Of a DNA stretch of 64,000 nt, positions 1-14,180 are shown one piece after another (within the stretch, counting starts at the first letter, position 1; each line of letters starts with the position of its first letter). The notes below the pieces were generated by a model that was given only the letters and a program-made list of their open reading frames with translations, was not told where the DNA came from and made no database searches. Origin of the DNA: a bacterium. Its GTDB lineage: Bacteria; UBA10199; 2-02-FULL-50-16; JAJFLM01. Both the position numbers and the translations under genes were made by a program. The DNA lies in assembly GCA_965216315.1 (NCBI GenBank), contig CBDCFN010000016.1, positions 2,277,060-2,341,059 of the forward strand, in the 5' to 3' direction.

Positions 1-101
1 TCAACATCCGTGTCACCATCTTTTTGGTTAACAGTAAACGTCGCCGCCGTCGCAGTCGCACTCGTGAACAAGATAAATAACGTGATGACCCATTTGGACA
101 T
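1..101 (-). CDS. partial CDS (5' end only, runs off window start): secreted protein, apparent third paralog of the CSLREA/beta-helix family
   Basis: rc ATG at 99-101 preceded by AAGGGGGAA SD; translation MSKWVITLFILFTSATATAATFTVNQKDGDTDVD = signal peptide then A-T-[FY]-x-V-[DN]...D-G/D-D motif like the mature N-termini of the 329-1891 and 12702-14180 products; absent from ORF track because under 60 codons lie inside the window. Confidence 0.4.
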   Translation of the reverse strand, partial: MSKWVITLFILFTSATATAATFTVNQKDGDTDV

Positions 102-328
102 GATTCCCCCTTGTAAGTTGCGCCCAGGCGTGACCGCATGAAGGCGTTATTGTACGCATGTGGGGTGGAGATAGGCAAGCACAAGGCCCGTGATCAGCGG
201 CTTAGAGGCCTACCTGGCTCAAAATGGCCTAAATAACCATGAATTACAGGCGATCCCTCGCTTGTATTCGTGAGATTGCCACGTCGGCTTTGAGCCGACT
301 CGCAATGACAACAATTGATTTTATTAAA

Positions 329-1891
329 TTACTTCCTAATCAACGAACAGCCACCGGAACCGCCGCTTTCATCCGTACAGGTACTGCTGCAACCATCCCC
401 GGCCGTCGTATTGCCATCGTCGCACTCCTCGCCGGTCTGGAGAATCCCGTCGCCGCAAGCGGCCGCCCCTTCATTTTGACAAGTGGAAGAACAACCATCA
501 CCGTCAGCCGTGTTCCCGTCGTCACACTGCTCGCCCGCATCGACGGTGCCATCGCCGCAGGCAGCACCGCCGCCGGTCTCAGTCGTGCAATCCGCCGCAC
601 AGCCGTCGCCGTCCGTCGTATTACCATCGTCACATTCTTCACCGGTGTCGACGTTGCCATTCCCGCAACCGACCTCGACGGCGCCCGCATCACACAAGGC
701 CGTCCCGTCGCCGTCCCCGTCGGCAGGACGCGTAAAGCCACGCTGGTCTGCGGTCAACTCAATCGCGTCTTCATCGACGCAGGAGCCGTCGGCAATGAGA
801 TCGATCGCCGGGCTATTGGCCGCCAGCGTGTGCGTCGGTGTCGGTCCTCCGTTATCCGCCAGTGTCGCTGCGACGATGGGATCGGTTACGGAGTTGTCGT
901 CGCCGGTCTGATTAAACTGACCTGCGCAGGTCGCATCATCGCTGAGGTTATGGCCATCGGAGCTGAGATTGGCAAGAGTACCCGCACAATTTTGCTTCAC
1001 GCCATTAGCCGTATTATTAACGAAAATAGAATTTTGTATTGTCGCATTCTGCGTAATCAGCAGCGCACCACCCGCGCCGGCTGGATCAGCAGCTTCATTG
1101 TTAACAAACGTCGAACTAAAAACATTCAGTGTCCCGGTACTGTTTTCTATAGCGCCACCACCCGTTGTATTGCTGGTCGATGTGTTGTTCGAGAACGTGC
1201 TGTTAATAACGAAACATGTCCCCGTTTCACAGAAAAAGGCTCCGCCACGACTACTCGCCGTATTATCGGACAGAGTTGTGTTACGGAAGATGACCGTCTG
1301 ATTATTGTTCATCGCCACGCTGCCACCGTCAGTACCATCTCCATTTTTTAAGTGGCATTCCTCTATAAGAAGCGCGAATTTGGTGTCGTCACCCGCACCG
1401 TCGCTGACGGTATACACGTGACCTCCGCGACCACTCGACGGGAGGTTGTCGGCATCAAGTGTCATCCCCTTAATGACCACTGTACCATTGGTCGCAAGAT
1501 TCGGATGAAAATGCCGGTCATCAAAGCCGGGGCCGGATTTTATCGTCGTCAGATCGGCGCCGGCTCCCATGATCGTCACCGGTTCAAAAATATCCAGGTC
1601 CCCGATATTTTCAAATTGATTGAACGCGTCTTGATCCGTCTCCGTATTGGCATTGCGGTCGATGTCAATTATGTATTCCCCTTCACCGAGTATAATCACA
1701 TCATGCGCCGCATCGGTATTGGCCTTAATCACCGCTCCACGCAAACTGCAGTCATTATCCGTCGCGTCATCACAAGTTGTCGCTGCCGCATTATCGTCGG
1801 TGCGATCAACGAGGTAGGTCGCCGCCTGAATCTGCGTTGAAAAAAACAGCGCCGCTAACGTTATTACGATATAAGAATAAAATTTTGCCAT
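329..1891 (-). CDS. secreted right-handed beta-helix protein with CSLREA-type N-terminal motif and three C-terminal Myxococcus-type cysteine-rich repeats
   Basis: 520 aa ORF; signal peptide MAKFYSYIVITLAALFFSTQIQA; CSLRGAV motif; N/T/G-rich beta-helix-like middle; three CGNG-x-VD-x-GE(E/Q)CDDGN-x3-GDGC repeats; ends GGCSLIRK without a hydrophobic tail; the many + strand ORFs over 239-1840 are shadow frames. Confidence 0.75.
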   Translation of the reverse strand: MAKFYSYIVITLAALFFSTQIQAATYLVDRTDDNAAATTCDDATDNDCSLRGAVIKANTDAAHDVIILGEGEYIIDIDRNANTETDQDAFNQFENIGDLDIFEPVTIMGAGADLTTIKSGPGFDDRHFHPNLATNGTVVIKGMTLDADNLPSSGRGGHVYTVSDGAGDDTKFALLIEECHLKNGDGTDGGSVAMNNNQTVIFRNTTLSDNTASSRGGAFFCETGTCFVINSTFSNNTSTSNTTGGGAIENSTGTLNVFSSTFVNNEAADPAGAGGALLITQNATIQNSIFVNNTANGVKQNCAGTLANLSSDGHNLSDDATCAGQFNQTGDDNSVTDPIVAATLADNGGPTPTHTLAANSPAIDLIADGSCVDEDAIELTADQRGFTRPADGDGDGTALCDAGAVEVGCGNGNVDTGEECDDGNTTDGDGCAADCTTETGGGAACGDGTVDAGEQCDDGNTADGDGCSSTCQNEGAAACGDGILQTGEECDDGNTTAGDGCSSTCTDESGGSGGCSLIRK

Positions 1892-2014
1892 GATATCGAC
1901 CCCCTGGTTTCGTGGAATCGTAAGTATACCCTATTGAGCAAAGCAGACAAGTTTTGTCGGATATGTGTATCAATTGGCAGGAATCAAGGGCAGAGGCCTC
2001 GATCTATCGAATTT

Positions 2015-2794
2015 CTATTCGGGCATTTCCTCGACCGACCCATCCGTATTCATCATTGCCCCGTCTTTTGCGATACGCTCCATGAGTTCGTGTAGTGGAA
2101 CGGCATGACTCCGACGGGATTCAAACTTTCGCTCTTCATGCTTTTCATCCGTCGCCGCACCTTCTTCCGCGTCGTCATCCTCCCGCATTTCCTTTGCTTG
2201 CATCGGCATCAATCCAGCCAGATGACCGTAACTGGATTTATTTAAAGTTGTGAATGAAGTATCCGTCTCTGCTTCGGTATTCGGAAGCGCGACCCAACGA
2301 TCGTCGTCGAGAGCCAGACCAAGCTGTCCCCAGCTTAGCGGACGTTCGCTCGCCTCGACATGAAGCTGTTCACTCAAACCCTCTTCCGTCGTGAAAAGCA
2401 AAGGGATCTGCTCCTCGCTGCTGAGACTCAAGGAGAAATGATAATACTGCCCGGTCTCAACCCAAAAACTAAAACGACACTCGAAATCGACCGAACCGAT
2501 GACGACGGTTTGAGGACCCTGCTGCACCCAAATCTGGCGTCCGACGCAGTCGCCGTCGCCCGCGAATTCCGCTTCTGCCTGCCACTCGGACTGCGGCGGC
2601 ACCATGCCGATGATCTGGCGATAGGCGGACGGTGGATTACCGGCCTCGGTCCCGCCTTGAAACTGGCTTAGCGGCGGCTGCGTGCCGCAGGCAAAGCCGC
2701 CCAGGGCCTGAATGAACAGGCCCACCACGATGACGATGCATTTTCGTATGGTGTATTCTCCCGATAAGATATTTTGCTTAAGTGAGAACATCAC
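2015..2794 (-). CDS. lipoprotein with GGTEAGNP motif (third gene of the module at 2.0-4.6 kb)
   Basis: 259 aa ORF; N-terminus charged n-region then hydrophobic stretch and lipobox GGFAC; GGTEAGNPP motif soon after the Cys; acidic C-terminal region. Confidence 0.55.
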   Translation of the reverse strand: MMFSLKQNILSGEYTIRKCIVIVVGLFIQALGGFACGTQPPLSQFQGGTEAGNPPSAYRQIIGMVPPQSEWQAEAEFAGDGDCVGRQIWVQQGPQTVVIGSVDFECRFSFWVETGQYYHFSLSLSSEEQIPLLFTTEEGLSEQLHVEASERPLSWGQLGLALDDDRWVALPNTEAETDTSFTTLNKSSYGHLAGLMPMQAKEMREDDDAEEGAATDEKHEERKFESRRSHAVPLHELMERIAKDGAMMNTDGSVEEMPE

Positions 2795-2835
2795 CTAAGT
2801 TATCGAAAGAATAAAGGAAATGTTGTATACAGCGG

Positions 2836-2862
2836 AAAATATCTGTTGACTCAAGTCAACAG
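2836..2862 (-). promoter_or_regulatory. motif copy CTGTTGAC-TTGA-GTCAACAGATATTTT (read on minus strand), upstream of the 2015-2794 lipoprotein gene
   Basis: perfect 8 bp inverted repeat with 4 nt spacer plus AGATA extension; overlaps a 10 bp stem hairpin (2859-2883) that spans the stop codon of 2871-3695. Confidence 0.45.
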
Positions 2863-2870
2863 CTGCGCCT

Positions 2871-3695
2871 TTAGCGCAGCTGTTCGTGCAGATCTTCCGG
2901 ATCTTCGATCGGCTGCTGCGCGCCACCGATCTCATTCAATGATTTGATGACCTTAATAACGCTGTCTCTTTTGATCATCATTTTATCATCACCCTGTTCT
3001 TCTTCCTGCTCCGTAATACCGTAAGTTCCGGTGAACGGATTAGTCACCTCTTCGGCGCCTTGATTCTCCTCGGTGCCGCCAAAGCCTTCTGCAGGACCGG
3101 CCTGTTCCGTCTCGTCTTCACCTTCGCCCTCAGGATAATAGGGACCGCCGGTCCCTTCACTGGACCCGCCCGCCCGGGCGGCATAACTATCGCCTTGCTG
3201 GTAGAAGGAGATCTTGCCAATATCGTGGGTCACTCCGCGGCCTTCGAAACGGACATGAGGCGTATCATCATCGCCAAAGCCAACTCGAACCCGGGTGCCG
3301 TCAGGCATTTCAATATCAAACATATACTTGTCGCCAGACCGCAATCCAGGGATCGTAAAATCACAACTCGGCGTTACAGACGCACTTGTCTCTAAATGAG
3401 TGTGCACGTTCGTGGCAATAACCTTAACGCCCGCGCAGGCGTTCGGTAAATTCGGATCAAAACCGGGAATCTCCTGCATACGAGGAACGTTACCGGTCAC
3501 CGAAACGATGCCGGGGTTTTCGGCCTGCCCGGGATCTTGATCAGTCACCGAGGGACCGTTCCTGGGGTTACCCGCTTCGGTACCGCCTCGAAGTCCGGGA
3601 TTTCCTAAACCGCCACCACTACCCCCAGTATTGCAAGCAGTGACCGTTATCGCCACGACAGCCAAGGTTAAAACTAAATTAAATGCTTTCTTCAT
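2871..3695 (-). CDS. lipoprotein with GTEAGNP motif, coupled to upstream TIGR02147-like gene
   Basis: ORF 2871-3734; internal Met (rc ATG 3693-3695) gives lipoprotein signal MKKAFNLVLTLAVVAITVTAC; motifs GLGNPG and GGTEAGNP; 25 bp after stop of 3721-4569. Confidence 0.65.
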   Translation of the reverse strand: MKKAFNLVLTLAVVAITVTACNTGGSGGGLGNPGLRGGTEAGNPRNGPSVTDQDPGQAENPGIVSVTGNVPRMQEIPGFDPNLPNACAGVKVIATNVHTHLETSASVTPSCDFTIPGLRSGDKYMFDIEMPDGTRVRVGFGDDDTPHVRFEGRGVTHDIGKISFYQQGDSYAARAGGSSEGTGGPYYPEGEGEDETEQAGPAEGFGGTEENQGAEEVTNPFTGTYGITEQEEEQGDDKMMIKRDSVIKVIKSLNEIGGAQQPIEDPEDLHEQLR

Positions 3696-3720
3696 GATGT
3701 AACACCCTTTCGTACGCTTC

Positions 3721-4569
3721 TTACGCTCTTTCATGTTTTGTCACCGGCAGCATCTGGATACTGAGCAAGACAACATCATCTGGATTGTCATCGTCAGCAA
3801 CCAACTGGAGGATTTCGCGTCGAAACTCCTGAATGCGTTTTTTGATCTGCGGGACTCTTTCTTTAATAATTCCTAAAGTCAGAGCACTGACATCCCGTTC
3901 TTTTTGTTCCACCTCGGGAAGCTGCCCTTTTAATAAATCAAACAAACTCTGGTGATAATTTAAAAGCACGAGGGAATCGGCTTCGGCACCGCTCGTTACA
4001 AGCGGTGTCGCCTGTTTCCACTTATTGGTCACCGCATCACGCTCAATAAAATGAAGTCGCGCCAACAATTCGACGGACTTTTTTACTTGCGCGGGAGACA
4101 CTTCCGGCTGCAATCTTTTAGCCAACCACTCGATTGAACCGTCAAAATCCTTAGAAATGATCAACTCGCGCACAACCGGATGATACCAGGTTGAAAAATA
4201 CTCGTAACGATCCTGCGCAAGTGGCTCTAACTGACTGTAGCGTTGAGAACGAATCAACTTCTTATAGTAAGCGTTTTTTTCCGCGTGCGTTTTCGCCTGA
4301 TTAAAGAAGACGAGATTACGAAAGTGCTCGCGCTCCGGACGCTCCAGTTTGATTCCTTTAATGAATTTCTTGAGGCTTTCCTCAGTCAGGTTACGTTCGC
4401 CATCCATGACGAGTTTAAAAATATTGGAGGATTTAAAGCCGGCTTGCCGGGAAAAGACCCGATATGAAAACCCGTACCGCTCTTTGGCCGATTCATACCA
4501 ATCGCGCAAGAAGGCCCGGTAATCCATATAATCGAATACTGAGACGTTATTGTTGCCGTTGTTACCCAT
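3721..4569 (-). CDS. XRE-type HTH protein, TIGR02147/DUF4423-like paralog 1
   Basis: 282 aa; conserved N-terminal block DYRAFLRDWYESAKERYGFSYRVFSRQAGFKSSNIFKLVMDGERNLT (HTH_XRE-like, GxRNLS end); paralogous to 7373-8233, 10214-11062, 18151-18723, 43573-44427. Confidence 0.75.
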   Translation of the reverse strand: MGNNGNNNVSVFDYMDYRAFLRDWYESAKERYGFSYRVFSRQAGFKSSNIFKLVMDGERNLTEESLKKFIKGIKLERPEREHFRNLVFFNQAKTHAEKNAYYKKLIRSQRYSQLEPLAQDRYEYFSTWYHPVVRELIISKDFDGSIEWLAKRLQPEVSPAQVKKSVELLARLHFIERDAVTNKWKQATPLVTSGAEADSLVLLNYHQSLFDLLKGQLPEVEQKERDVSALTLGIIKERVPQIKKRIQEFRREILQLVADDDNPDDVVLLSIQMLPVTKHERA

Positions 4570-5463: not shown

Positions 5464-5470
5464 AAACAGC

Positions 5471-6188: not shown

Positions 6189-7376
6189 CTAGGGTTGCGC
6201 CGTAAACGAAGTCGTTGCGGCCTTGGTCTTACCGCCCGTCCCGCAGTCGATTTCATCGACCTTGACCTCGTATTCGGTCCCGGCGGCAAAGGGGTCAACG
6301 CCGTGCTCGCACGCGATCTCATCCGCCCCCAGCTGATGGTTGGTGCAATCGACGTCGATCGCGAGTCCTTTGGGCTGAATAATCAGCGCGCTGGGAAAAT
6401 CGATCAGGCCAAGATGATATTTGCAGCCCAAGCGAACAATCACCTGTTCCGAGAGGCCTACGCCCGTCTGACCGTTGAAGGGATAAATTCTCAAGACCGG
6501 AACCATCCCCCCCAAATCTTCCTCACGACAAGGTGAGCCGGGATCATTGTCATCGATAAAACCATTGAGGTCACAATCCCGCTCCATTTGATCAAGTACG
6601 CCGTCGTTATCATCGTCCGTGTCGATCGCATCCGAGTCCCCATCCTCGTCGCGGTCCGTATAGATCTCCGGATTGTGTTCCGGAATCGCGTCAAGACCCT
6701 CGATCTGCACCCGACCTAAGTCAACGGGTTTCTCGGCCGGGAGCCCGACGTAAAACTCATTTTGGCGGATAAAGGCGCGCTGCTTACTGAGATGTTCCAT
6801 CTTCACGACCAGGCGCGCGACGAGGTCACCGGTCTTTTTTCGGAACTCCAGCATATAAGCGCGCTTGGTCGGCACAGCGAGCTTAAAAGAGCAATCCGAT
6901 TCAATTCTCGTAGTGAGCTCTTGTCGTGCAGAGTTGATCGCGGTCACGGTCGCGGCCGGACAGACCTTGACTACCGCAATTTTAGTCGCCTGCTCGGCCC
7001 ATTCCGTCCGGATGTTTACCAGACTCATCTGCATGAGCGGCCTGATATCCTTATACGGCAATTCGCGCACCGGGCTCTCGATCAGCTGCCGTTCCTCTTC
7101 CACGGGCTGCAGCTGACCGATGATCAGGCGTAGCGGAGCCGGATCCTGATCGTAAGGTGTTCCCGGCCGTGGCCCTGGTCCCGGATCAGTCGGCGTCGCT
7201 TCCGGATTCCCGAAATCCGTTCCCCCGAACTCTGGGTTCCCGAAATCCGTTCCGCTGATCGTTTGCTCGGTATCGACAATGTCCGGTGGTGCGGTATCCG
7301 CTCCCTGCGGCTGGACGCACGCGGCAATAAAAAAGACGAGCGCAATAGTACTGAGCAACCGGCTCCAGCAGGTCAT
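6189..7376 (-). CDS. lipoprotein with tandem GTDFGNPE motifs and thrombospondin-type-3-like Asp-rich calcium-binding repeats
   Basis: 395 aa; lipobox FIAAC; GTDFGNPEFGGTDFGNPE; DRDEDGDSDAIDTDDDNDGVLD and DCDLNGFIDDND; start overlaps stop of 7373-8233 by 4 bp; paralogous to 11507-12652. Confidence 0.7.
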   Translation of the reverse strand: MTCWSRLLSTIALVFFIAACVQPQGADTAPPDIVDTEQTISGTDFGNPEFGGTDFGNPEATPTDPGPGPRPGTPYDQDPAPLRLIIGQLQPVEEERQLIESPVRELPYKDIRPLMQMSLVNIRTEWAEQATKIAVVKVCPAATVTAINSARQELTTRIESDCSFKLAVPTKRAYMLEFRKKTGDLVARLVVKMEHLSKQRAFIRQNEFYVGLPAEKPVDLGRVQIEGLDAIPEHNPEIYTDRDEDGDSDAIDTDDDNDGVLDQMERDCDLNGFIDDNDPGSPCREEDLGGMVPVLRIYPFNGQTGVGLSEQVIVRLGCKYHLGLIDFPSALIIQPKGLAIDVDCTNHQLGADEIACEHGVDPFAAGTEYEVKVDEIDCGTGGKTKAATTSFTAQP

Positions 7377-8233
7377 GATCCACCTGCCTCGTCCGTCGGC
7401 TCTTCGACCATCGGGAATAAATAGATATTCAACTGCAAGACCTCCTCCGTCTCCGTATCATCGGCGACCAGCTTGAGGATGTCCTGTCGAAATTTTTCGA
7501 TTTTCTTCTTTATCTGGTGCAGGCGGGGCTTGGTTACTCCCAAGGTCAACGCCCCCATATAGCGCCTCGGTGCCGGAACGGCCCCAAGCAGGTGGGGGAG
7601 AAGCTTCATCATAGTCTTATGATAATTGAAAAGCTCAACGGATTCAATAGCGGTCCCGGGGGCGAGCACGGAAGAGCTCTGTTCCCAGCGTCCTGACGGG
7701 CTGCGATGGATCAATTCGAGCTTTTCCAAGAGCTCGAGCGAGGCTTCGACCTGCTCCAATTTGATCCGTTTTCCGAGCCGCGTCATCAACCATTCCGGGG
7801 TTCCATCATAGTCCTTGGCCGTGATGAGCTCGCGAATGACCGCATGGTACCAAGCCGAACAATATTCATGCTGATGGGCTCTAATCGGTTGTCTTTGTTG
7901 GTATTTTTTCGAACGCAGCAACAAGTTGTAGTAACGATCCTCTTCTTCATGGGTCTTGGCCTGGTTATACGCGACCAGATTGCTAAAAAAATCGGCGTCC
8001 TGGGCCGCCAGCTTCAAGGCCTTAACCGTCTTCGGCAAGGTATCCGCAGTTAAGTTCCGTTTTCCCTGAATGACCAACATGATGTAGTTGGAGGACTTGA
8101 ACCCGGCGCGTTCCGCAAATCTTCGATAGGACATGGAGGCCCGGGTCTTTTTCTTCGCCTCAAACCAGTCGCGCAAATAGGTACGATAATCGTTGTAATC
8201 GTAGAGATTTATGTCCTCTGCCGGCTCCGACAC
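7373..8233 (-). CDS. XRE-type HTH protein, TIGR02147/DUF4423-like paralog 2
   Basis: 286 aa; DYRTYLRDWFEAKKKTRASMSYRRFAERAGFKSSNYIMLVIQGKRNLT; shared central CSAWYHAVIRELI block. Confidence 0.75.
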   Translation of the reverse strand: MSEPAEDINLYDYNDYRTYLRDWFEAKKKTRASMSYRRFAERAGFKSSNYIMLVIQGKRNLTADTLPKTVKALKLAAQDADFFSNLVAYNQAKTHEEEDRYYNLLLRSKKYQQRQPIRAHQHEYCSAWYHAVIRELITAKDYDGTPEWLMTRLGKRIKLEQVEASLELLEKLELIHRSPSGRWEQSSSVLAPGTAIESVELFNYHKTMMKLLPHLLGAVPAPRRYMGALTLGVTKPRLHQIKKKIEKFRQDILKLVADDTETEEVLQLNIYLFPMVEEPTDEAGGS

Positions 8234-8298: not shown

Positions 8299-10185
8299 CT
8301 AACCCTCACCATTCGGGTCTTGGATGACCATGCGTGCCGCCGCCGTCCAATAGTCGACGTCAATCTCCGCATCGACGAGGAGGCGTGCCCCGGCCAAGGT
8401 CGTAATCTCCGGATGTTCGTGGAAGCGAATCGGGATCAACGGGATAAAGTAAGGTGGGTAACGCTCCAATACATAATCAAGCAGCTCCATTTTATCATCG
8501 TCGCTAAGCCACTCGAGTCGCGCTAACCCCAAAAACCGAAAGGCCTGTCGCAAGTTGAGCGGCTTCGGATAGAGCGACACATGGGCCGTTTGATAGATAT
8601 TCCATAATTCGTGGAGGTGGCTCTCGATCTGACTGCGCTGTTTCTGCGGCGAGGTCACGCCGCCACCTACGAAGATGATGTGCTGTCCCGGATAACGCAA
8701 AAACCGTTTGGCAAATTCCGCAAATTTCTCGACATACTTACCCGAGATATAAACAGACTCATCAAAAATAAACACTGTCGGTTGCACGATATCATCGATC
8801 TCGCGGATCAAGCCGATGGCCCGATCACCTCCCCCCATCGCCTGGGCATCAAGCGAAACGACTCGGTGCCCCCTTTCTGATAAGACCCGTTCCAAATTCC
8901 AGATGAGAACCTCACTTTTTCCGGAGCCCGAAAGGCCGGTCGAAGAGACGAGCTGGACACCATCCTCAATCGCGCTAACGACCTGATCGACTTCGGAAGC
9001 ACGATAGTCACGAAGCGACTTATCCGAAGGATCTCGATCGATCGACCGCAGCAGCCGACTATCCTGAGTACGAAAGCCCACCACATGATAAGGGGATCGC
9101 GGTTGAGTCCGCTGCGATAAGTCAGGAATCGGCGGGGTCTGACGCGGGCGCGGAAATAGGTGGGGTCGATAAATAATCAAGGCATTGCGCACCGTCTCCG
9201 GCAAATTGGTAAAGGGCATCCCGAGCACACCCCGTACACGACGGAGAATGCGGCCGCCGCGTCCCGCAATAACCGATTCACGAAAACGGCTGATAGTCTC
9301 ATCATCCTTTAAATCCAATTGCATCGTGTAGCTGGAGCGATCGAGCAAGAAGGCCAGCCCCGGACGGCGCGCCACGTCCACGACCTGATCAACCGTAAAC
9401 TGATAACCATGACGCTCAATAATCTCGGACACAACTCGCAGCCAGCCGAGTTTAATCCGGGGGAGCACAATAAACCCAGCGAGTTCGCGTGGACTCCTCA
9501 GTTCATTGTATTTATCTTGAGCAAAGGCCTCGCCGTAATCGCCCGCAAATTCCTTCAGTTTATTGCCGATGGCATTGCGAGTTCCCTGATCGATCGTAAC
9601 CCCATCAAAGAAGCGGTAGGCATAACGGCCGACCTCACGCGCTTCGATCTGGAAGTCACTCACCATCCCACTCTTGCGCGCAAAATGAAGTAGATTTTGA
9701 TGGATCTGCAGAGCCAGTCGGGACTTGGATCCCGTAATTTCTATGGATGTATCACTCCTTCGCGTCAGCGATCCGTCCGCATTCCGTTGCCAGACGTACG
9801 TACAACTTCCATTGATACTGTCACCATTCCCTTTAAACTCGGCGTGCGTCTCAAAAGTATTTTCGTTGTGTCTCGCCACACGCAGGCAATCAAGCTTCAA
9901 GGAAATGTTCATTCCTTCAAAGGCATTAATCAGATCCTGGATGGTGACCCGCTCCCCAAAGAATTGCGCAAACGCTTGATGCAAAGCGGGATGCCGCGAC
10001 GCATCCTCAATCGCATAGTCGACATCGTCGATCGATACGGAGCTGAGCCGGTGCGTTTGAATAGGAAACGGCCCCGAAGGAGGATTTAAAATATCGAAAG
10101 AATCCCCGGAGGCCAGAACAGTCGTCATCAAGCCTATTGAGGCTAAACCGTTCGTATAGGAGGACACCACAGGCAGCATACTCAC
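8299..10185 (-). CDS. large protein of unknown function with C-terminal P-loop kinase-like domain (APS-kinase/small-molecule-kinase-like Walker A)
   Basis: 628 aa; track start is GTG at 10183-10185, an ATG lies two codons in (10177-10179); hydrophobic N-terminal stretch; Walker A STGLSGSGKSEV, then VSLDAQAMGGG, Walker B-like VFIFDE; lies between two TIGR02147-like genes with 28 and 65 bp gaps. Confidence 0.65.
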   Translation of the reverse strand: MSMLPVVSSYTNGLASIGLMTTVLASGDSFDILNPPSGPFPIQTHRLSSVSIDDVDYAIEDASRHPALHQAFAQFFGERVTIQDLINAFEGMNISLKLDCLRVARHNENTFETHAEFKGNGDSINGSCTYVWQRNADGSLTRRSDTSIEITGSKSRLALQIHQNLLHFARKSGMVSDFQIEAREVGRYAYRFFDGVTIDQGTRNAIGNKLKEFAGDYGEAFAQDKYNELRSPRELAGFIVLPRIKLGWLRVVSEIIERHGYQFTVDQVVDVARRPGLAFLLDRSSYTMQLDLKDDETISRFRESVIAGRGGRILRRVRGVLGMPFTNLPETVRNALIIYRPHLFPRPRQTPPIPDLSQRTQPRSPYHVVGFRTQDSRLLRSIDRDPSDKSLRDYRASEVDQVVSAIEDGVQLVSSTGLSGSGKSEVLIWNLERVLSERGHRVVSLDAQAMGGGDRAIGLIREIDDIVQPTVFIFDESVYISGKYVEKFAEFAKRFLRYPGQHIIFVGGGVTSPQKQRSQIESHLHELWNIYQTAHVSLYPKPLNLRQAFRFLGLARLEWLSDDDKMELLDYVLERYPPYFIPLIPIRFHEHPEITTLAGARLLVDAEIDVDYWTAAARMVIQDPNGEG

Positions 10186-10213: not shown

Positions 10214-11062
10214 TTAAGCCTTGGGGCTCGTTAACGGAAACATGTGAATATTGACCTGAACGACCTCTTCCGGGGTTTCATCTGCGGAGACGAATTTGAG
10301 GATGTCCTGACGAAATTTTTGGACTTTTTTCTTGAGTTGCTCCAGCCTTTCTTTACGCACCCCGAGGGTCAATGCACTGATATCGCGTCGTTCTCCCGGT
10401 ACGGTATCAAGAACCTCCTTGGTCAACTCGAGCATATTATAATGATATGCAAATAATTCGATCGAGCGAACATCCGCCCCCGTCGAAACTAAACTATGGC
10501 TCTGTTTCCACCGACCTTTTTTATTGCGCTTGGCGAAGCCCAAGGTTTCTAATAATTCGAGAGAATGCGTCACATCGGCAACAGATACTTTCGGAAAAAT
10601 CCGTTCCGCAATCCATTCAGCAGTCCCGTCATATTCTTTTGCCGTAATGAGTTCGCGAATGACGGCATGGTACCAACGAGAGCAATATTCATATTGGTGC
10701 GTGCGTATCGGTTCTAACTGGTTATACTTTCTCGACCGCAGCATGCGTTGATAATAACGCTCTTTGTCCCGCTGATGTTCCTCCTGCGTATAATGAACCA
10801 GGTTTTCAAAAAATTCCGTCTCCTGCTTGTTCAGCTTGAGCGCCTTGGCCACTTTAGGAATGCTTTCTTGGCTCAAATTTCGCTTGCCCTGCAACACCAT
10901 CATAATGAAATTCCAGGACTTGAGGCCGGCACGCTCCGAGAACTTTCGATACGACATGCCCGCCCGGGTCTGTTTAGCAGCTTTGTACCAATCGTTTAGA
11001 AAATCACGATAATCTAGATAACTAAACGGGCTGACCTGATTGGCAATGCGTGACTGTGACAT
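10214..11062 (-). CDS. XRE-type HTH protein, TIGR02147/DUF4423-like paralog 3
   Basis: 282 aa; DYRDFLNDWYKAAKQTRAGMSYRKFSERAGLKSWNFIMMVLQGKRNLS; closest in sequence to paralog 5. Confidence 0.75.
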   Translation of the reverse strand: MSQSRIANQVSPFSYLDYRDFLNDWYKAAKQTRAGMSYRKFSERAGLKSWNFIMMVLQGKRNLSQESIPKVAKALKLNKQETEFFENLVHYTQEEHQRDKERYYQRMLRSRKYNQLEPIRTHQYEYCSRWYHAVIRELITAKEYDGTAEWIAERIFPKVSVADVTHSLELLETLGFAKRNKKGRWKQSHSLVSTGADVRSIELFAYHYNMLELTKEVLDTVPGERRDISALTLGVRKERLEQLKKKVQKFRQDILKFVSADETPEEVVQVNIHMFPLTSPKA

Positions 11063-11440: not shown

Positions 11441-11456
11441 GTGTACTTTAGTACAC
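11441..11456. promoter_or_regulatory. palindromic operator-like site GTGTAC-ttta-GTACAC
   Basis: perfect 6 bp half-sites; preceded by TATAAT on the + strand; in the 445 bp region upstream of paralog 3. Confidence 0.45.
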
Positions 11457-11506
11457 TAACAAGTCTCATTTATTTAACAATTCTAAGCAACTATGATTAG
11501 TCGATT

Positions 11507-12652
11507 CTATAAAGCCGTCTTAAAAGTCCAACTCGTCTGCGGAATACTTTCCCCGCCGTCACAGTCGGTCTCCAGCAGCGTCGCCGTGTACGTCATGTTG
11601 TGCACAAAGGGAAGCGCGTGCGTACACTCAATAACCGTATTGCCAACAAAGAGAACCGACACGCACGCAATCGTGGCAGCCACTTCATCCTCGAGTTTGA
11701 TCTTGCCCGAATCAAACTGGCCGACATCAACGGGGCAACTGACCTTGACCCGTATCTTTTGCAACTCACCTATATCCGTTTCGCCACTAAAAGGAGACGC
11801 TGCGAGCACTCGCGGTCCGGAAGAGGATCCTCCTGCGGAACACGCGGAATCTTCGTCGCCATCATCGGGAAAGCCATCGAGGTCACAGTCCGGCTCTTCC
11901 ACATCAGGAATTCCATCATTATCGTCGTCAGGATCGTCTTTGTCATTGAGGCCATCTCCGTCGCGGTCACTCCACGCGCGCGGATCATTGGCCGCCGTTG
12001 CAATCTTACCTGTGCGCGCAATAGCCCCCAAATCGAGCGGGGTGTCCGAAGCCGGGATGTTGAAAGTATGAAGCGGAACGCCTCCGACTACTGAGACGAC
12101 TAAACGCGATTGGATCGAGCCTGCCGACCAAAAACTCATATGATAAAGTTGATTGGAGGGGACCTCAATACGGAAAGAACAATCGTCTTGAATATCGGAC
12201 TCATGAACCTCTCCATCGGAAGCGGTTAACTTGACGTGGTCGACCCCGCAAATCAGCTTCGGCGGGGTCGCGAAGGAACCGGGACCAGGCGCGGGCGGTT
12301 CCGGCACGGTACTTCCTCCCGTCGTAAACCCCGGGGCCAAACCTACCTGGTCGCCCGCGAATCCAGGATTGTCTCCCGGTGCCGGCTCCTCGTTCCCTGA
12401 AGGGGCCTTTTCTGCAATGAGTTTCAACTGACCCGTCACGAGAGCGATGGGATTGCCGAATTCGGAACCCCCTTGAGGATTACCAAATTCCGAACCTCCC
12501 TGTTCCTGCGGATTACCGAATTCGGAAGCGCCGGTCTTTTCGACCTCAGCCCCAGTGGGGACGTTATCGGGAGAATCAAGACCGCCTCCCGGTACACAGG
12601 ATGTCAGTAGGAATAACAGGGCCGTAATCGAAACAATTGAACGCGCGTGCAT
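11507..12652 (-). CDS. lipoprotein with three GSEFGNP motifs and thrombospondin-type-3-like Asp-rich repeats
   Basis: 381 aa; lipobox LLTSC; GASEFGNPQEQGGSEFGNPQGGSEFGNP; DRDGDGLNDKDDPDDDNDGIPD and DCDLDGFPDDGDED; paralog of 6189-7376. Confidence 0.7.
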   Translation of the reverse strand: MHARSIVSITALLFLLTSCVPGGGLDSPDNVPTGAEVEKTGASEFGNPQEQGGSEFGNPQGGSEFGNPIALVTGQLKLIAEKAPSGNEEPAPGDNPGFAGDQVGLAPGFTTGGSTVPEPPAPGPGSFATPPKLICGVDHVKLTASDGEVHESDIQDDCSFRIEVPSNQLYHMSFWSAGSIQSRLVVSVVGGVPLHTFNIPASDTPLDLGAIARTGKIATAANDPRAWSDRDGDGLNDKDDPDDDNDGIPDVEEPDCDLDGFPDDGDEDSACSAGGSSSGPRVLAASPFSGETDIGELQKIRVKVSCPVDVGQFDSGKIKLEDEVAATIACVSVLFVGNTVIECTHALPFVHNMTYTATLLETDCDGGESIPQTSWTFKTAL

Positions 12653-12701
12653 AGACTCTCCCTTTATACCATGTTGTCCCCCGTCAGGGAATAACTACCG
12701 A

Positions 12702-14180
12702 TTATTGTCTCAACAGCGCACGGCGCCCAAACAACACGCCTAATGCTGCCAAGGCCATCACGAAGAGGCCGAGTGTATTTGCCGCGTGAGGCGTCGCGTT
12801 CAGGCTACAACCACCCGATGTCGCGAGTGATTCACTTTCTTCACCCGTTCCATCACCGACGATAACTTCTTCATTTTCCGCCGGATTCTCTTCCGCATCC
12901 TCTCCCTTATCCGCGTCTATGTTTATAAGTTCGCCTTCACATTGATCATCACAACCGTCGCCATTTTCTTCATTCCCGTCGTCGCAGTCCTCTCCCTCAT
13001 CCACAATACCATTGCCACAGAGACCTTTTTCGAAGGCCCCGACATCCGAACTGACCCCAAGAGGCCTCGGAAAACCGCGCTGGTCTTCAGCCAGCTTGAC
13101 AATGATGGCGGCATCAATAGCGAGGCTGCCGGCTCCAAGCGCATGTGTGCGGGTGTCTCCGCCGTTAAAAGCCAAGGCTTGCAACTTAAGATCGGCACTG
13201 TCGACTCCCGATTGATCCGTCGTTTCCGTAAGGTTACAGGTTCCGTCGACATCAATGTTGCCACCACCCGATGTAATCGTCCCGAGACCACCGGACGTAT
13301 CGCAATTCGCGTCAACGCCGCCGGATCCGTCTACCTGTGCCAACAAACTATTATACAAATTCACTTCGCCATCACCGGCAACGAGATGAGCCGCTAGCAG
13401 GTCAGCACGATTATGATAGAAAGTGACATGCCAGAGATCCACATCGTCCGCGAGACTCACCAGCCCGCCACCGGTCGGCGCCGTATTGTTACTGATCGTG
13501 ACATTCACCAACTTGATGTTGCTAGAGCCCGTTCCAACGGCAACACCGCCACCAAAATCGGCAGCGCTATTGTCGCTGACCAAACAGCGCTCCATATCAA
13601 GCGTTCCGGTTCCTATCGCCAGACCGCCGCCAGCGTCGGCTTCATTGCCGATAAGCTCGACATCACGCAAAATAATATCACCGGATCCATCCGAATAGAT
13701 TCCGGCACCGGGTTCCGTGGGGCTCGATCCACTCTGAATCGAGAGTCGCTCAAAAGTTACGTTCGCATTATTTAAAACGTGAAACACTCGACTGTGTTGA
13801 CCACCACTGATAATCGGCAGAGGCAATTTCTTAAGCGGGATAGCACCCGAACTCAAACTCGGGTCCCCTTGGATGATGACATCATCCGTGATATCAAAAT
13901 CGCGCAGGCCATTCGCATCATCATCGACAAGCATCGTCTCATCGATTCCATAAATGCCGTTGGCAATGATAATCGTATCTTCGCCGGGATTGCTATTCGC
14001 TAGATTAATCGCCGCACGCAAGGTGCATGACGTTCCGCCACCGAGCATGAAGAAACAGATACCACCATCTTCCGTTCGATCCACGGTATAAGTCTCCGCG
14101 TGGACTTGAGCCGCCGCCAACATCGCGACAACCACCGCGCTAATAATTGAGAATTTTTTAATCGTTTCCAGTATACCCAT
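12702..14180 (-). CDS. secreted beta-helix protein with CSLREA-type motif, one Myxococcus-type cysteine-rich repeat and MYXO-CTERM-like C-terminal sorting signal
   Basis: 492 aa; signal peptide; CTLRAAINLAN motif; CGNGIVDEGEDCDDGNEENGDGCDDQC; C-terminus SGGCS...TLGLFVMALAALGVLFGRRALLRQ (Cys motif, hydrophobic helix, basic tail). Confidence 0.75.
   Translation of the reverse strand: MGILETIKKFSIISAVVVAMLAAAQVHAETYTVDRTEDGGICFFMLGGGTSCTLRAAINLANSNPGEDTIIIANGIYGIDETMLVDDDANGLRDFDITDDVIIQGDPSLSSGAIPLKKLPLPIISGGQHSRVFHVLNNANVTFERLSIQSGSSPTEPGAGIYSDGSGDIILRDVELIGNEADAGGGLAIGTGTLDMERCLVSDNSAADFGGGVAVGTGSSNIKLVNVTISNNTAPTGGGLVSLADDVDLWHVTFYHNRADLLAAHLVAGDGEVNLYNSLLAQVDGSGGVDANCDTSGGLGTITSGGGNIDVDGTCNLTETTDQSGVDSADLKLQALAFNGGDTRTHALGAGSLAIDAAIIVKLAEDQRGFPRPLGVSSDVGAFEKGLCGNGIVDEGEDCDDGNEENGDGCDDQCEGELINIDADKGEDAEENPAENEEVIVGDGTGEESESLATSGGCSLNATPHAANTLGLFVMALAALGVLFGRRALLRQ

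What the first reader, a model, noticed from the sequence alone, without database searches (positions are those of the whole stretch)
1..14180. Three paralogous CSLREA-type beta-helix surface proteins with different C-terminal ends
329-1891 and 12702-14180 (plus the partial gene at 1-101) share a signal peptide, a C-S/T-L-R motif near the N-terminus, a beta-helix-like repeat region and Myxococcus-type CGNG...CDDGN...GDGC repeats. Only 12702-14180 retains a MYXO-CTERM-like tail (GGCS, hydrophobic helix, RR), while 329-1891 stops right after GGCSLIRK. This may reflect loss of the anchor (released versus anchored isoforms) or a frameshift. The second paralog sits directly upstream of a GSEFGNP lipoprotein.
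Basis: partly seen in the sequence, partly recalled or inferred. Interest (0 to 1): 0.45.

Follow-up and report, generated by a model that had tools for sequence, protein, structure and literature searches.

The report
Beta-helix surface proteins, short cysteine tail
Two complete genes and one cut-off gene encode related secreted beta-helix proteins, and the "truncated" end of one of them (…GGCSLIRK) is a conserved short cysteine tag found on many unrelated exported proteins, so it is probably an undescribed sorting or modification signal and not a broken membrane anchor.

Summary
Gene A (329-1891, minus strand) and gene B (12702-14180, minus strand) are paralogs (32% identity, E 8e-34). Both pass the NCBIfam cut-offs for choice-of-anchor Q and for the cysteine-rich acidic repeat. 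An AlphaFold model of A is a right-handed beta-helix whose closest solved structure is Rhombotarget A.

The CSLREA and MYXO-CTERM models are the best matches for their regions in B, but both score below cut-off. The third gene (1-101) shows only 33 codons.

The short end of A is not a frameshift, a sequencing error or random decay:
- A 63%-identical syntenic ortholog ends GGCSLIR-stop, with 5 of 7 tail codons changed synonymously.
- All 16 Gly-linker-plus-Cys short ends among 309 family-related proteins read GGCSL[IVL]R plus 0-2 residues (one reads GGCSLVLR).
- An independent metagenome DNA scan found GGGCSLIR-stop ending long ORFs from other families (LTD, CBM_4_9, TSP3, a metalloprotease-like protein, propeller-like repeats), with p = 1e-7 against an internal control.

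B most likely uses a MYXO-CTERM-like anchor (cysteine motif, membrane helix, Arg cluster). A carries a helix-less cysteine tag whose processing is unknown. My leading guess is a CaaX-like lipidation and trimming step.

The proteins are ordinary; the tag appears undescribed.

The parts
329..1891 (-). Gene A: a 520-aa exported choice-of-anchor Q beta-helix protein with three cysteine-rich acidic repeats and the short C-terminal tag GGCSLIRK.
   Evidence: ORF. NF041518 53.3 bits and TIGR02232 103 bits. AlphaFold2 beta-helix with Rhombotarget A as best PDB match. An identical protein, P0001, is on record from a 2.40-Mb contig.
1823..1891 (-). Gene A signal peptide (aa 1-23, MAKFYSYIVITLAALFFSTQIQA).
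   Evidence: Read directly from the sequence. Modelled as an N-terminal helix, aa 2-17. No signal-peptide predictor was available.
1739..1750 (-). Gene A C-S-L-R motif (aa 48-51, in DNDCSLRGAVIKAN).
   Evidence: C48 is invariant and R51 nearly invariant in the 22-sequence family alignment. The TIGR04214 model itself does not report A.
866..1714 (-). Gene A right-handed beta-helix turns (about aa 60-342).
   Evidence: AlphaFold2 strand ladder, block-mean pLDDT mostly above 90 between about aa 100 and 340. Foldseek matches: Rhombotarget A 9cdu/9cdv at E 4e-8, then PL6 lyases and C5-epimerases.
671..865 (-). Gene A choice-of-anchor Q domain (aa 343-407).
   Evidence: NF041518 53.3 bits, cut-off 25.
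377..670 (-). Gene A: three cysteine-rich acidic repeats (aa 408-505; CGNG..CDDGN..GDGC..C).
   Evidence: TIGR02232 in 3 stretches and PF13948 DUF4215. The repeats match Pappalysin-1 chains in the PDB.
332..355 (-). Gene A short C-terminal cysteine tag GGCSLIRK (aa 513-520). The TAA stop is at 329-331.
   Evidence: The same tag is seen in the ortholog P0002. It is also seen in 15 other family-related proteins and in unrelated metagenomic ORFs.
272..308 (-). Stem-loop just downstream of the gene A stop (TCATTGCGAGTCGGCTCAAAGCCGACGTGGCAATCTC). It has no U-run and occurs once in the window.
   Evidence: fold z = -2.5. It may be a terminator or a REP-like element. It is not part of a displaced tail.
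1..101 (-). Gene C, 5' end only (33 codons: MSKWVITLFILFTSATAAATFTVNQKDGDTDVD). It is probably a further family member.
   Evidence: In the syntenic locus L002 the gene after the A ortholog is a 1060-aa protein with two choice-of-anchor Q domains and a long tail SSSGGCSLQPSATTQPFSMIIFSIFSLFLFGIMRKSTQR. The fragment itself hits no HMM.
12702..14180 (-). Gene B: a 492-aa exported choice-of-anchor Q beta-helix protein with one cysteine-rich repeat, an acidic linker and a tripartite MYXO-CTERM-like tail.
   Evidence: ORF. NF041518 62.6 bits, TIGR02232 29 bits, CSLREA 16.3 bits. PF13229 Beta_helix 29.1 bits. No close ortholog was found; the best hit is 35% identical.
14016..14027 (-). Gene B C-T-L-R motif (aa 52-55).
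   Evidence: TIGR04214 scores 16.3 bits on the whole protein and 20.9 bits on the N-terminal 80 aa. Both are below the 25-bit cut-off.
12705..12818 (-). Gene B C-terminal sorting-type tail (aa 455-492). It has a SGGCSL signature, a 9-aa spacer, the hydrophobic helix LGLFVMALAALGVLFG (nt 12726-12773), then RRALLRQ.
   Evidence: TIGR03901 MYXO-CTERM is the best match on the isolated tail, at 18.9 bits against a cut-off of 20.
11507..12652 (-). Lipoprotein gene 49 bp downstream of B (381 aa). It has a lipobox LLTSC, three [AG]SEFGNP repeats (one ASEFGNP, two GSEFGNP), TSP3-like acidic repeats and a Big_5 Ig-like domain. It probably forms an operon with B.
   Evidence: Terminator-like hairpins flank the B-lipoprotein pair at 14432-14407 and 11167-11149. 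The terminator scan as a whole was not enriched over shuffles.
2015..4569 (-). Cassette upstream of A: a TIGR02147/DUF4423 gene (3721-4569), overlapping by 14 nt a GGTEAGNP lipoprotein gene (2871-3734), then a second GGTEAGNP lipoprotein gene (2015-2794), then A.
   Evidence: L002 has the same order: TIGR02147, lipoprotein, A ortholog.

Best explanation
A, B and probably C are paralogous exported right-handed beta-helix proteins of the choice-of-anchor Q / CSLREA / Rhombotarget-A kind. Each has a Sec leader, an N-terminal cap with the C-S/T-L-R motif, a beta-helix closed by the choice-of-anchor Q domain, and a stalk of cysteine-rich acidic repeats and linker. A C-terminal cysteine-containing address label follows.

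B carries the tripartite label (GGCSL signature, membrane helix, Arg cluster) of the MYXO-CTERM type. By analogy with Myxococcus TraA, B is expected to be held in the inner membrane, modified on the cysteine and cut just after it by a CPBP/Rce1-type myxosortase. It would then be moved to the cell surface with a lipid anchor.

A carries a different, selected label: the same GGCSL signature ending four residues later (-I-R-K-COOH), with no helix. This label is a conserved modular tag found on many unrelated exported proteins in the same uncultivated lineages. It often sits on genes next to paralogs that have the long label.

I therefore read it as a functional short variant of the cysteine sorting signal, recognised through the cysteine and the SL[IVL]R end. 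My leading guess is a CaaX-like cysteine modification followed by trimming of the last few residues. It is not a broken anchor.

What is shown: paralogy, domains, fold, absence of a hidden tail, conservation, and modular spread of the tag.

What is inferred: every processing step, the fate of A (anchored or released), and the function of the beta-helix.
For: Family and fold:
- for domains and paralogy.
- for the model (mean pLDDT 77.6; Rhombotarget A match at E 4e-8).

B tail: tripartite, with MYXO-CTERM as the best model.

Not an artefact:
- No hydrophobic tail in any frame of 1-328.
- The syntenic ortholog P0002 (63% identity) ends GGCSLIR-TAA, with 5 of 7 tail codons changed synonymously.
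- The syntenic orthologs P0074 and P0046 (53% identity) both keep the short end.

Specific motif:
- Among 309 family-related proteins taken without regard to their ends, 16 have a Gly-linker plus Cys in the last 12 residues.
- All 16 read GGCSL[IVL]R plus 0-2 residues (one reads GGCSLVLR).
- Long tails vary after the Cys: CSLQ, CGLI, CGLV, CSCR, CDCS, CGCR, CSLN.
- P0038 (GGCSLIRAH) is nested among 65%-identical long-tail proteins that read GGCGLIQ and GGCGLIP. The short form therefore needed G-to-S and Q-to-R changes as well as a stop.

Modular spread, from a metagenome DNA scan for GGGC-x-[L/F]-I-[R/S]-stop:
- 13 of 15 matches that end ORFs of at least 100 aa read exactly CSLIR.
- Only 7 of 38 chance matches in short ORFs did so (p = 1e-7).
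- These ORFs carry LTD, CBM_4_9 and TSP_3/MtsC-like domains, a metalloprotease-like HExxH motif, propeller-like repeats, or no known domain.
- DUF5122 proteins in L078 also carry the tag.

Mixed arrays: short and long ends occur on neighbouring paralogs.
- In L002 a short-ended gene is followed by a long-ended one.
- L079 has one short-ended gene, then two long-ended ones.
- Its syntenic counterpart L077 has two short-ended genes.
- In P0004 a long-ended gene has been merged with a following short-ended one.

Pathway analogy: PMC11980579 and bioRxiv 10.1101/2023.06.07.544157.
Against: - No processing enzyme was seen. The window contains no CPBP protease or T2SS genes among the ORFs scanned. 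None was seen in the neighbourhoods whose gene content was listed.
- Without a membrane helix it is unclear how a periplasmic C-terminus would reach a membrane-embedded lipid transferase or protease.
- Cysteine lipidation is still only proposed, even for canonical MYXO-CTERM (PMC11980579).
- B's tail and N-terminal motif both score below the curated cut-offs.
- The organism is not a recognised member of the Myxococcota. Its nearest named PriA relative is only 43% identical, from a 'Deltaproteobacteria bacterium' MAG.
- Counting cysteines did not show that the tail Cys is the odd one out.
- Easy evolutionary switching between short and long ends would also fit a simple anchored/released toggle.
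Confidence: 0.6

Rival explanations
1. Anchorless release form. A has lost the membrane helix and is secreted free into the medium, as Myxococcus TraA is when its MYXO-CTERM is removed. B stays on the cell. On this view the GGCSLIR end is kept for a reason other than lipid anchoring. It could be recognition by the secretion system, protection of the C-terminus, or an intermolecular disulfide. It is not cut or lipidated.
For: - A has no helix and no Arg cluster.
- TraA without MYXO-CTERM is released via the T2SS (PMC11980579).
- Short and long ends alternate between neighbouring paralogs and between syntenic orthologs, as expected for an easy functional toggle.
- Other helix-less ends exist: P0060 and P0099 read GGGCSLVSFTSVSE[HN]RAAGSG[IL]IR, and a protein in L078 reads GGCSLVPNFS.
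Against: - Release alone needs no conserved tail, yet S, L, [IVL] and R after the Cys are nearly invariant across proteins that are only 35-60% identical or are unrelated.
- The tail is conserved through synonymous codon turnover.
- A free reactive cysteine on a flexible Gly linker would be an odd thing to preserve without a use.
Confidence: 0.27
2. Artefact or pseudogene. The short end would come from a sequencing or assembly error, a frameshift, or a recent nonsense mutation or insertion (for example the hairpin element at 272-308) that cut off a normal MYXO-CTERM-like tail.
For: - A stem-loop element sits 21 bp after the stop.
- B and many homologs have the full tail.
Against: - No tail remnant exists in any frame of 1-328.
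- An independent genome (GCA_021772655.1) has the same end at the same position with unrelated downstream DNA.
- More than 30 independent sequences share the end.
- The metagenome internal control gives p = 1e-7.
Confidence: 0.02
3. The short tag serves a system unrelated to myxosortase-type sorting. It could mediate covalent attachment through the cysteine to a polysaccharide, an S-layer or a partner protein, or recognition by a dedicated exporter. On this view its resemblance to the MYXO-CTERM signature reflects only shared ancestry of the linker.
For: - The tag has its own strict sequence rules (S at +1, R at +4) that the long tails do not follow.
- No model or paper describes it.
- Short-end genes in L077 and L079 are flanked by OmpA-like genes.
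Against: - The GGC[S/G]L signature is shared with the long tails of the same genomes.
- The two tail types interconvert within close clades.
- No recurrent dedicated neighbour gene was seen across loci.
Confidence: 0.11

Closest known systems
Choice-of-anchor Q domain proteins (NCBIfam NF041518), including CSLREA-N-terminal proteins (TIGR04214)
   Same: Both A and B pass the NF041518 cut-off. They share the N-terminal ATYTVD...C-S/T-L-R cap, the beta-helix and the DQRG...CD.GA.E closing domain. Many homologs are named 'CSLREA domain-containing' or 'choice-of-anchor Q' by JGI and NCBI. The family is very large: 36,877 representative clusters at E <= 0.001.
   Different: CSLREA_Nterm scores below cut-off in B and does not hit A. 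The short GGCSLIR end is not among the anchor types I know for this family (from my own knowledge). It hits no NCBIfam model.
MYXO-CTERM sorting signal (TIGR03901) and the myxosortases MrtX/MrtC/MrtP (CPBP/Rce1-like intramembrane proteases)
   Same: B's tail has the defining three parts: a signature with a Cys, a membrane helix and an Arg cluster. MYXO-CTERM is its best model match. A keeps the same GGCSL signature (PMC11980579; bioRxiv 10.1101/2023.06.07.544157).
   Different: - B scores 18.9 bits against a cut-off of 20.
- The signature here is GGC[S/G]L, whereas Myxococcus-type tails read GC[G/S/D]C.
- A has no helix and no Arg cluster.
- No myxosortase was seen.
- The organism is an uncultivated 'Deltaproteobacteria'-labelled lineage, not a recognised member of the Myxococcota or Bradymonadales.
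Rhombotarget A (RbtA; PDB 9cdu, 9cdv), a GlyGly-CTERM / rhombosortase substrate
   Same: It is the closest solved fold to the model of A (Foldseek E 4e-8, alignment across nearly the full length). Homolog P0046 weakly hits the RbtA model TIGR04212, at 30.8 bits against a cut-off of 295. The design is the same: a beta-helix with a C-terminal sorting label.
   Different: Identity is only 18% and TM-score 0.45-0.53. RbtA uses a GlyGly-CTERM tail cut by rhombosortase. It has no cysteine-rich repeats and no Cys tag.
Eukaryotic and archaeal CaaX box processed by Rce1-type CPBP proteases
   Same: Both are very short C-terminal labels with an obligatory cysteine followed by a few mostly aliphatic residues. 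Rce1 belongs to the same protease superfamily as the myxosortases. Haft noted that this superfamily handles both long (MYXO-CTERM) and short (CaaX) signals.
   Different: - CaaX has exactly three residues after the Cys and acts on cytosolic proteins after prenylation.
- Here there are 4-6 residues (SLIR, SLIRK, SLIRAH), the last conserved one is Arg, and the proteins are Sec-exported.
- No lipid transferase is known for this tag.

The resemblance is a lead, not a test.
Myxococcus cysteine-rich acidic repeat (TIGR02232 / DUF4215), also present in Pappalysin-1
   Same: A has three copies and B has one, all above cut-off. They match Pappalysin-1 chains in the PDB.
   Different: None of note. This is a standard stalk module.

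Membership tests
Choice-of-anchor Q domain family (NF041518) | HMM score at or above the curated cut-off of 25 bits | tested here: met
   A scores 53.3 bits (aa 343-407) and B scores 62.6 bits (aa 330-384). Orthologs and other short-tail proteins also pass.
CSLREA N-terminal domain (TIGR04214) | HMM score at or above the curated cut-off of 25 bits | tested here: not met
   B scores 16.3 bits on the whole protein and 20.9 bits on the first 80 aa. A gives no hit even at E <= 10. The literal motif is present: DCSLRGA in A and SCTLRAA in B.
Cysteine-rich acidic repeat (TIGR02232 / PF13948) | HMM score at or above the cut-off (20.8 bits for TIGR02232; 27 bits for PF13948) | tested here: met
   A scores 103 bits in three stretches and 55.3 bits on PF13948. 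B scores 29 bits on TIGR02232, but only 18.9 bits on PF13948, below that cut-off.
Right-handed parallel beta-helix (Rhombotarget-A-like fold) | A confident model with stacked three-strand turns and a significant structural match to solved beta-helices | tested here: met
   AlphaFold2 gives mean pLDDT 77.6, with block means mostly above 90 between about aa 100 and 340. Foldseek against the PDB gives 9cdu/9cdv at E 4e-8, then PL6 lyases and AlgE4. Pfam Beta_helix scores 29.1 bits in B.
MYXO-CTERM sorting signal (TIGR03901) | HMM score at or above the curated cut-off of 20 bits | tested here: not met
   The isolated B tail scores 18.9 bits (E 0.0014). It is the best hit but is below cut-off and was not reported on the full protein. 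The A tail gives no hit.
MYXO-CTERM sorting signal (TIGR03901) | Tripartite architecture: a signature with an invariant Cys, then a transmembrane helix, then an Arg-rich cluster at the extreme C-terminus | tested here: met
   Met for B: SGGCSL, a 9-aa spacer, LGLFVMALAALGVLFG, then RRALLRQ. Not met for A, which has only the signature plus IRK.
MYXO-CTERM sorting signal (TIGR03901) | A cognate myxosortase (CPBP core NF040914; MrtX/MrtC/MrtP) encoded in the same genome | not testable with these tools
   Only 64 kb of the genome is available. The ORFs scanned in the window show housekeeping genes only. The source contig could not be retrieved.
MYXO-CTERM sorting signal (TIGR03901) | Occurrence in the Myxococcota or Bradymonadales | tested here: inconclusive
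   The closest relatives of the window's PriA are unnamed MAG proteins (55-63% identity). The nearest named one is 'Deltaproteobacteria bacterium RIFCSPLOWO2_02_FULL_50_16' at 43%.
GlyGly-CTERM / rhombosortase targets (RbtA, TIGR04212) | A GlyGly-CTERM tail and an RbtA equivalog score of at least 295 bits | tested here: not met
   A and B give no GlyGly-CTERM hit. Only homolog P0046 touches TIGR04212, at 30.8 bits.
CaaX box | A cysteine exactly four residues from the C-terminus (C-a-a-X) on a cytosolic protein | tested here: not met
   The tails have 4-6 residues after the Cys (SLIR, SLIRK, SLIRR, SLIRAH, SLVLR), and the proteins carry Sec leaders. The similarity is in principle only.

The most novel reading that the evidence does not exclude
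GGCSL[IVL]R-COOH is a previously undescribed prokaryotic protein-sorting or lipidation signal. It would be a helix-less, CaaX-like short form of the cysteine-based MYXO-CTERM class. It is used as a modular tag on many unrelated Sec-exported proteins in uncultivated 'deltaproteobacterial' lineages. On this reading it is recognised through its cysteine and trimmed by a CPBP/Rce1-type protease (or by a new enzyme) without ever having a membrane-spanning segment.
Probability: 0.3. Interest if true: 0.8.

Novelty: new variant of a known kind. Interest (0 to 1): 0.55.

Why it matters
The beta-helix proteins themselves are routine members of a very large family.

What matters is the tail. All described prokaryotic C-terminal sorting signals have the same three parts: a signature, a membrane helix and a basic cluster. 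This applies to LPXTG, PEP-CTERM, GlyGly-CTERM, MYXO-CTERM and the rest.

Here a tag keeps only the cysteine signature plus four fixed residues. It is under clear selection. It sits on many unrelated exported proteins, and it alternates with the full tripartite tail on neighbouring paralogs.

If the tag is processed, it would be a bacterial counterpart of the eukaryotic CaaX box acting outside the cytoplasm. It would give a natural minimal substrate for asking what myxosortase-type proteases and the still-unknown cysteine-modifying enzyme recognise.

If the tag is not processed, these gene pairs are natural anchored/released isoform sets.

Either way, gene callers and annotators should not flag such ends as truncations.

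Tried and rejected
- **Retrieving the source contig, to get gene C in full and to look for a myxosortase.** Three exact-protein look-ups found nothing. The single genome-contig scan returned only a 28%-identical Teredinibacter locus. Cluster look-ups gave no names.
- **Displaced-frame tail in 1-328.** None in any frame. The only hydrophobic run, LITGLVLAYL, is 10 residues long with no basic cluster.
- **REP or mobile-element truncation.** The hairpin motif occurs once in the window, and near matches are at chance level. The ortholog has different downstream DNA.
- **Cysteine parity as a test for a free tail cysteine.** Uninformative: 13 of 22 short-tail proteins have an odd count, and A has 22 Cys including a lone C179.
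- **PDB sequence search.** It matched only the cysteine repeats, to Pappalysin. The fold search was needed to reach Rhombotarget A.
- **HMM scan of the 33-aa gene C fragment.** No hit.
- **Promoter and terminator scan.** Counts were not above shuffles, so operon structure is only suggested.
- **Rfam and tRNA scans.** Nothing in 1-14180.
- **First metagenome pattern.** The accepted pattern needed a third Gly, so it samples only GGGC... tails.
- **Neighbourhood inspection for a recurrent partner enzyme.** No CPBP protease or other recurrent candidate was found across L002-L004, L077-L079 and the metagenome loci.
- **Literature search for the tail sequence.** Only irrelevant hits.
- **A tail-only protein-database search.** I considered this and dropped it, because an 8-residue match cannot reach a usable E-value in 5.8 billion sequences.

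Full report
**What is in the window**

All the genes in question lie on the minus strand.
- Gene A, 329-1891, is 520 aa.
- Gene B, 12702-14180, is 492 aa.
- At 101-1 there are the first 33 codons of a third gene, C. They read MSKWVITLFILFTSATAAATFTVNQKDGDTDVD.

A and B align over almost their whole length: 32% identity, E 8e-34. Each has a hydrophobic leader ending in AxA. Each then has the family's N-terminal cap, A/E-T-Y-x-V-D-R-T-x-D...C-S/T-L-R (A aa 48-51, B aa 52-55).

The rest of the 64-kb window is ordinary chromosome. It holds PBP1, PriA, Fmt, SerS, GlnA, DinB, Lon, ClpX and three tRNAs.

PriA's closest relatives are unnamed MAG proteins at 55-63% identity. The nearest named one is a 'Deltaproteobacteria bacterium RIFCSPLOWO2_02_FULL_50_16' protein at 43%. 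The host is therefore an uncultivated lineage of the former Deltaproteobacteria.

**Family tests**

Both proteins pass the curated NCBIfam cut-offs for two models:
- The choice-of-anchor Q domain, NF041518: 53.3 and 62.6 bits, cut-off 25.
- The cysteine-rich acidic repeat, TIGR02232: three copies in A at 103 bits and one in B at 29 bits, cut-off 20.8.

- CSLREA_Nterm (TIGR04214) gives 16.3-20.9 bits in B against a cut-off of 25, and nothing in A.
- MYXO-CTERM (TIGR03901) gives 18.9 bits on B's isolated tail against a cut-off of 20. It is still the best-matching model there.

Many homologs are named 'CSLREA domain-containing protein' by JGI and 'choice-of-anchor Q' by NCBI.

The family is very large. 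The N-terminal 410 residues of A match 36,877 representative clusters at E <= 0.001. Many of these are giant multi-repeat proteins.

**Fold**

I built an AlphaFold2 model of A on a 22-sequence alignment. Mean pLDDT is 77.6, and block means are mostly above 90 between about aa 100 and 340. The model is a regular ladder of short strands.

Foldseek against the PDB puts Rhombotarget A (9cdu, 9cdv) first at E 4e-8. PL6 alginate lyases and mannuronan C5-epimerase beta-helices follow at about 1e-3.

The repeats match Pappalysin-1 by sequence.

So the description 'beta-helix surface protein with Myxococcus-type repeats' holds. The biochemical function of the helix remains unknown.

**The two ends**

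B ends SGGCSL-NATPHAANT-LGLFVMALAALGVLFG-RRALLRQ. That is a cysteine signature, a spacer, a 16-residue hydrophobic helix and a basic cluster.

A ends SGGCSLIRK, followed by TAA. None of the three minus-strand frames of 1-328 encodes a hydrophobic helix with a basic cluster. The region holds only a stem-loop at 272-308, then the start of gene C.

**The short end is not an artefact**

The best homolog of A is P0002, at 63% identity. It comes from another assembly, GCA_021772655.1. It sits in the same gene order: a TIGR02147 gene, a GGTEAGNP lipoprotein gene, the A ortholog, then a larger choice-of-anchor Q gene. It ends ...SGGCSLIR-TAA.

The tail codons are:
- window: ggt ggc tgt tcg ttg att agg
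- L002: gga ggc tgt agc ctg atc aga

Five of the seven codons differ, and every difference is synonymous. One is a switch between the two serine codon families. That is the signature of purifying selection on the peptide.

A second ortholog pair shows the same. P0074 and P0046 are 53% identical. Both lie next to the rpsB-tsf-pyrH-frr-uppS-cdsA-dxr cluster, and both keep the end, as GGGCSLIR and GGGCSLLR.

**The short end is a specific motif**

I collected 309 family-related proteins in three searches without regard to their ends. Sixteen have a Gly-rich linker and a cysteine within the last 12 residues. All sixteen read GGCSL[IVL]R followed by 0-2 residues. The extensions are none, K, R, I, S, AH or TP. 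One sequence reads GGCSLVLR.

The long tripartite tails in the same sample are variable after the cysteine: CSLQ, CSLN, CGLI, CGLV, CSCR, CDCS, CGCR.

In a neighbour-joining tree of the beta-helix domains, short ends appear in at least three separate places. P0038 (GGCSLIRAH) is nested among 65%-identical proteins with long tails that begin GGCGLIQ and GGCGLIP. Making the short form therefore took G-to-S and Q-to-R changes as well as a stop.

A few other helix-less ends exist:
- P0060 and P0099 end GGGCSLVSFTSVSE[HN]RAAGSG[IL]IR, with or without a final P.
- A protein in L078 ends GGCSLVPNFS.

**The tag is modular**

To escape the bias of searching with family members, I scanned the JGI metagenome collection for the DNA pattern GGN GGN GGN TGY WSN YTN ATH MGN TRA. 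This encodes GGGC-x-[L/F]-I-[R/S]-stop. It gave 72 loci.

The three degenerate positions provide an internal control.
- Among de-duplicated matches lying in short chance ORFs, 7 of 38 (18%) read CSLIR. This is close to the 21% expected from the codon degeneracy of the pattern.
- Among matches that end ORFs of at least 100 aa, 13 of 15 read CSLIR.
- The binomial p is 1e-7.

These long ORFs are exported proteins of different kinds:
- choice-of-anchor Q beta-helices with thrombospondin-3 repeats (L005, and two in tandem in L027);
- 'FRISxxGPDGD...YLVVW' repeat proteins (L017, L075);
- a lamin-tail-domain protein (L025);
- a 965-aa protein with 14 cysteine repeats (L043);
- a CBM_4_9 protein (L014);
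- a protein with a metalloprotease-like HETGHxxxxxH motif (L072);
- a protein with no known domain (L053);
- an MtsC-like TSP3 protein ending GGGCTLIR (L062).

In L078, two DUF5122-type proteins also carry helix-less Cys ends, one of them ...SSSGGCSLIR.

A short conserved C-terminal peptide, preceded by a low-complexity linker and shared by unrelated exported proteins, is exactly how the known sorting signals were first recognised. That method is described in bioRxiv 10.1101/2023.06.07.544157.

No NCBIfam or Pfam model covers the tag. The two myxosortase papers do not mention it. A full-text search for the peptide found nothing relevant.

**Context**

Short-tail and long-tail genes are often neighbours.
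- In L002 a short-tail gene is followed by a long-tail gene.
- In P0004 a long-tail gene has been merged by the gene caller with a following short-tail gene.
- L079 has one short-tail and two long-tail genes between two OmpA-like genes. Its syntenic counterpart L077 has two short-tail genes in the same position.

The window itself fits this pattern. A (short) is followed by C, whose L002 counterpart has a long tail.

The finding's region also holds three TIGR02147/DUF4423 paralogs, 43-53% identical to one another.
- Two of them (3721-4569 and 7373-8233) overlap the start of a lipoprotein gene by 14 and 4 nt respectively.
- The third (10214-11062) is followed by a 628-aa P-loop-like gene.
- The lipoproteins all carry G-[ST]-[ED]-[AF]-G-N-P soon after the lipobox.
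- The same TIGR02147-lipoprotein coupling is seen in L002 and L043.

B and the GSEFGNP lipoprotein gene 49 bp downstream of it are bracketed by terminator-like hairpins. The terminator scan as a whole was not above shuffles.

**How it most likely works**

Shown:
- There are two full paralogs with the same body and different ends.
- B's end is tripartite.
- A's end is a selected, modular tag with no helix.

From the literature: in Myxococcus, MYXO-CTERM proteins are exported by Sec and held by the C-terminal helix. They are then cut by the CPBP/Rce1-type protease MrtX in a cysteine-dependent way and moved to the surface by the T2SS. Lipidation of the cysteine before cleavage is proposed but not shown. 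TraA lacking the tag is released to the medium (PMC11980579).

Inferred for B: the same route, using a lineage-specific GGC[S/G]L version of the signature.

Inferred for A: because the tag has its own strict sequence rules and is spread over unrelated proteins, some machinery reads it. The most economical guess is that the same or a related cysteine-modifying enzyme and CPBP protease act on it, as Rce1 acts on the short CaaX box. That would leave a modified C-terminal cysteine.

The main alternative is that A-type proteins are the released counterparts of anchored paralogs, with the tag serving recognition or stability.

My estimates are:
- about 0.6 that the tag is a functional processing or sorting label;
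- about 0.3 for the specific CaaX-like lipidation and trimming version;
- about 0.27 for a release form with an uncut tail;
- about 0.02 for an artefact.

**Comparison and novelty**

The proteins are new members of a known kind (choice-of-anchor Q / CSLREA / RbtA-like).

B works like a MYXO-CTERM protein. I do not file it as a member, for three reasons: the HMM cut-off is missed, the cognate enzyme could not be checked, and the lineage is uncertain.

The GGCSL[IVL]R-COOH tag is best described as a new variant of the cysteine-bearing C-terminal sorting signals. It lacks two of their three defining parts. It also differs from CaaX in length, in compartment and in its terminal arginine.

**Limits**

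- The metagenome pattern sampled only GGGC...IR-stop tails.
- There is no whole-genome view, no enzyme, and no experimental data.
- Gene C is seen for only 33 codons.

Noticed in passing
window 3721-4569, 7373-8233, 10214-11062 (all minus strand); also L002 1680-2549 and L043 7130-7987: There are three TIGR02147/DUF4423 (Fsuc_second) paralogs within 8 kb, 43-53% identical to one another. Two of them overlap the start of a lipoprotein gene (by 14 nt at 3721-3734 and by 4 nt at 7373-7376). The same tight coupling is seen in L002 (a 1-nt junction) and L043 (a 4-nt overlap). This looks like a conserved regulator-like gene plus lipoprotein cassette of unknown function.
   Followed up: partly
window 2015-2794, 2871-3734, 6189-7376, 11507-12652 (all minus strand); L002 2550-3362: All four lipoproteins carry one to three copies of G-[ST]-[ED]-[AF]-G-N-P (GTEAGNP, GTDFGNP, GSEFGNP) 15-45 residues after the lipobox cysteine. 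In six-frame searches of the window and of all fetched loci, the motif occurs only in these proteins and in the L002 lipoprotein. It could be a lipoprotein sorting or surface-exposure signal. None of these proteins reaches any family's cut-off; the only near-threshold hit is a Big_5 domain in one of them, at 23.3 bits against 23.6.
   Followed up: partly
window 8299-10185 (minus strand): A 628-aa protein lies between two TIGR02147 genes. It has only faint P-loop hits (APS kinase and CbiA-like, around aa 408-461) and no family assignment.
   Followed up: no
proteins P0398, P0400, P0412, P0417, P0433, P0241, P0266, P0268, P0269 and others: Many other choice-of-anchor Q proteins end in a different very short tail, [FY]-L-P-[LIA]-[VIL]-x-[KR]-COOH. 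Examples are ...RLVYLPLTIR...FKIYLPLVIK and ...YQLYLPAMTR. This is a second helix-less conserved C-terminal motif in the same family.
   Followed up: no
L077 6815-13221 and L079 3997-12448: These are syntenic arrays in which two or three tandem choice-of-anchor Q genes are bracketed by two OmpA-like genes (455-463 aa). The array lies between gltBD/EamA and ferredoxin-mraZ. The same slots hold short tails in one genome and long tails in the other.
   Followed up: partly
window 272-308 (minus strand): A hairpin, TCATTGCGAG-TCGGCTCAAAGCCGAC-GTGGCAATCTC, sits 21 bp after the gene A stop. It has no U-run and resembles the 'CATTGCGAG...GCAATC' repeat hairpins I recall from other bacteria (from memory). 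There is only one copy in this window.
   Followed up: partly
window 332-355 compared with 1739-1750 (minus strand): The C-terminal tag G-C-S-L-I-R resembles the N-terminal cap motif D-C-S-L-R-G of the same protein. The CSLREA model even touches the tail, at 9.8 bits with E 0.73. This may be coincidence.
   Followed up: no
window 38084-39007 and 38949-40124 (plus strand): A pair of adjacent Get3/ArsA-fold ATPases resembles mycobacterial BagA and BagB. The BagB-like score is 318 bits, below its cut-off of 521, and the BagA-like score is 123 bits.
   Followed up: no
window 47478-48545 (minus strand): This is a thioredoxin-like lipoprotein related to the Rcas_1661 (seleno)lipoprotein family, at 112 bits against a cut-off of 190. 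It lies next to glnA and serS.
   Followed up: no
P0060 and P0099; L078 6540-8090: Intermediate helix-less Cys tails also exist. Examples are GGGCSLVSFTSVSE[HN]RAAGSG[IL]IR (with or without a final P) and GGGCSLVPNFS. The short-tag class may therefore be broader than GGCSL[IVL]R.
   Followed up: no
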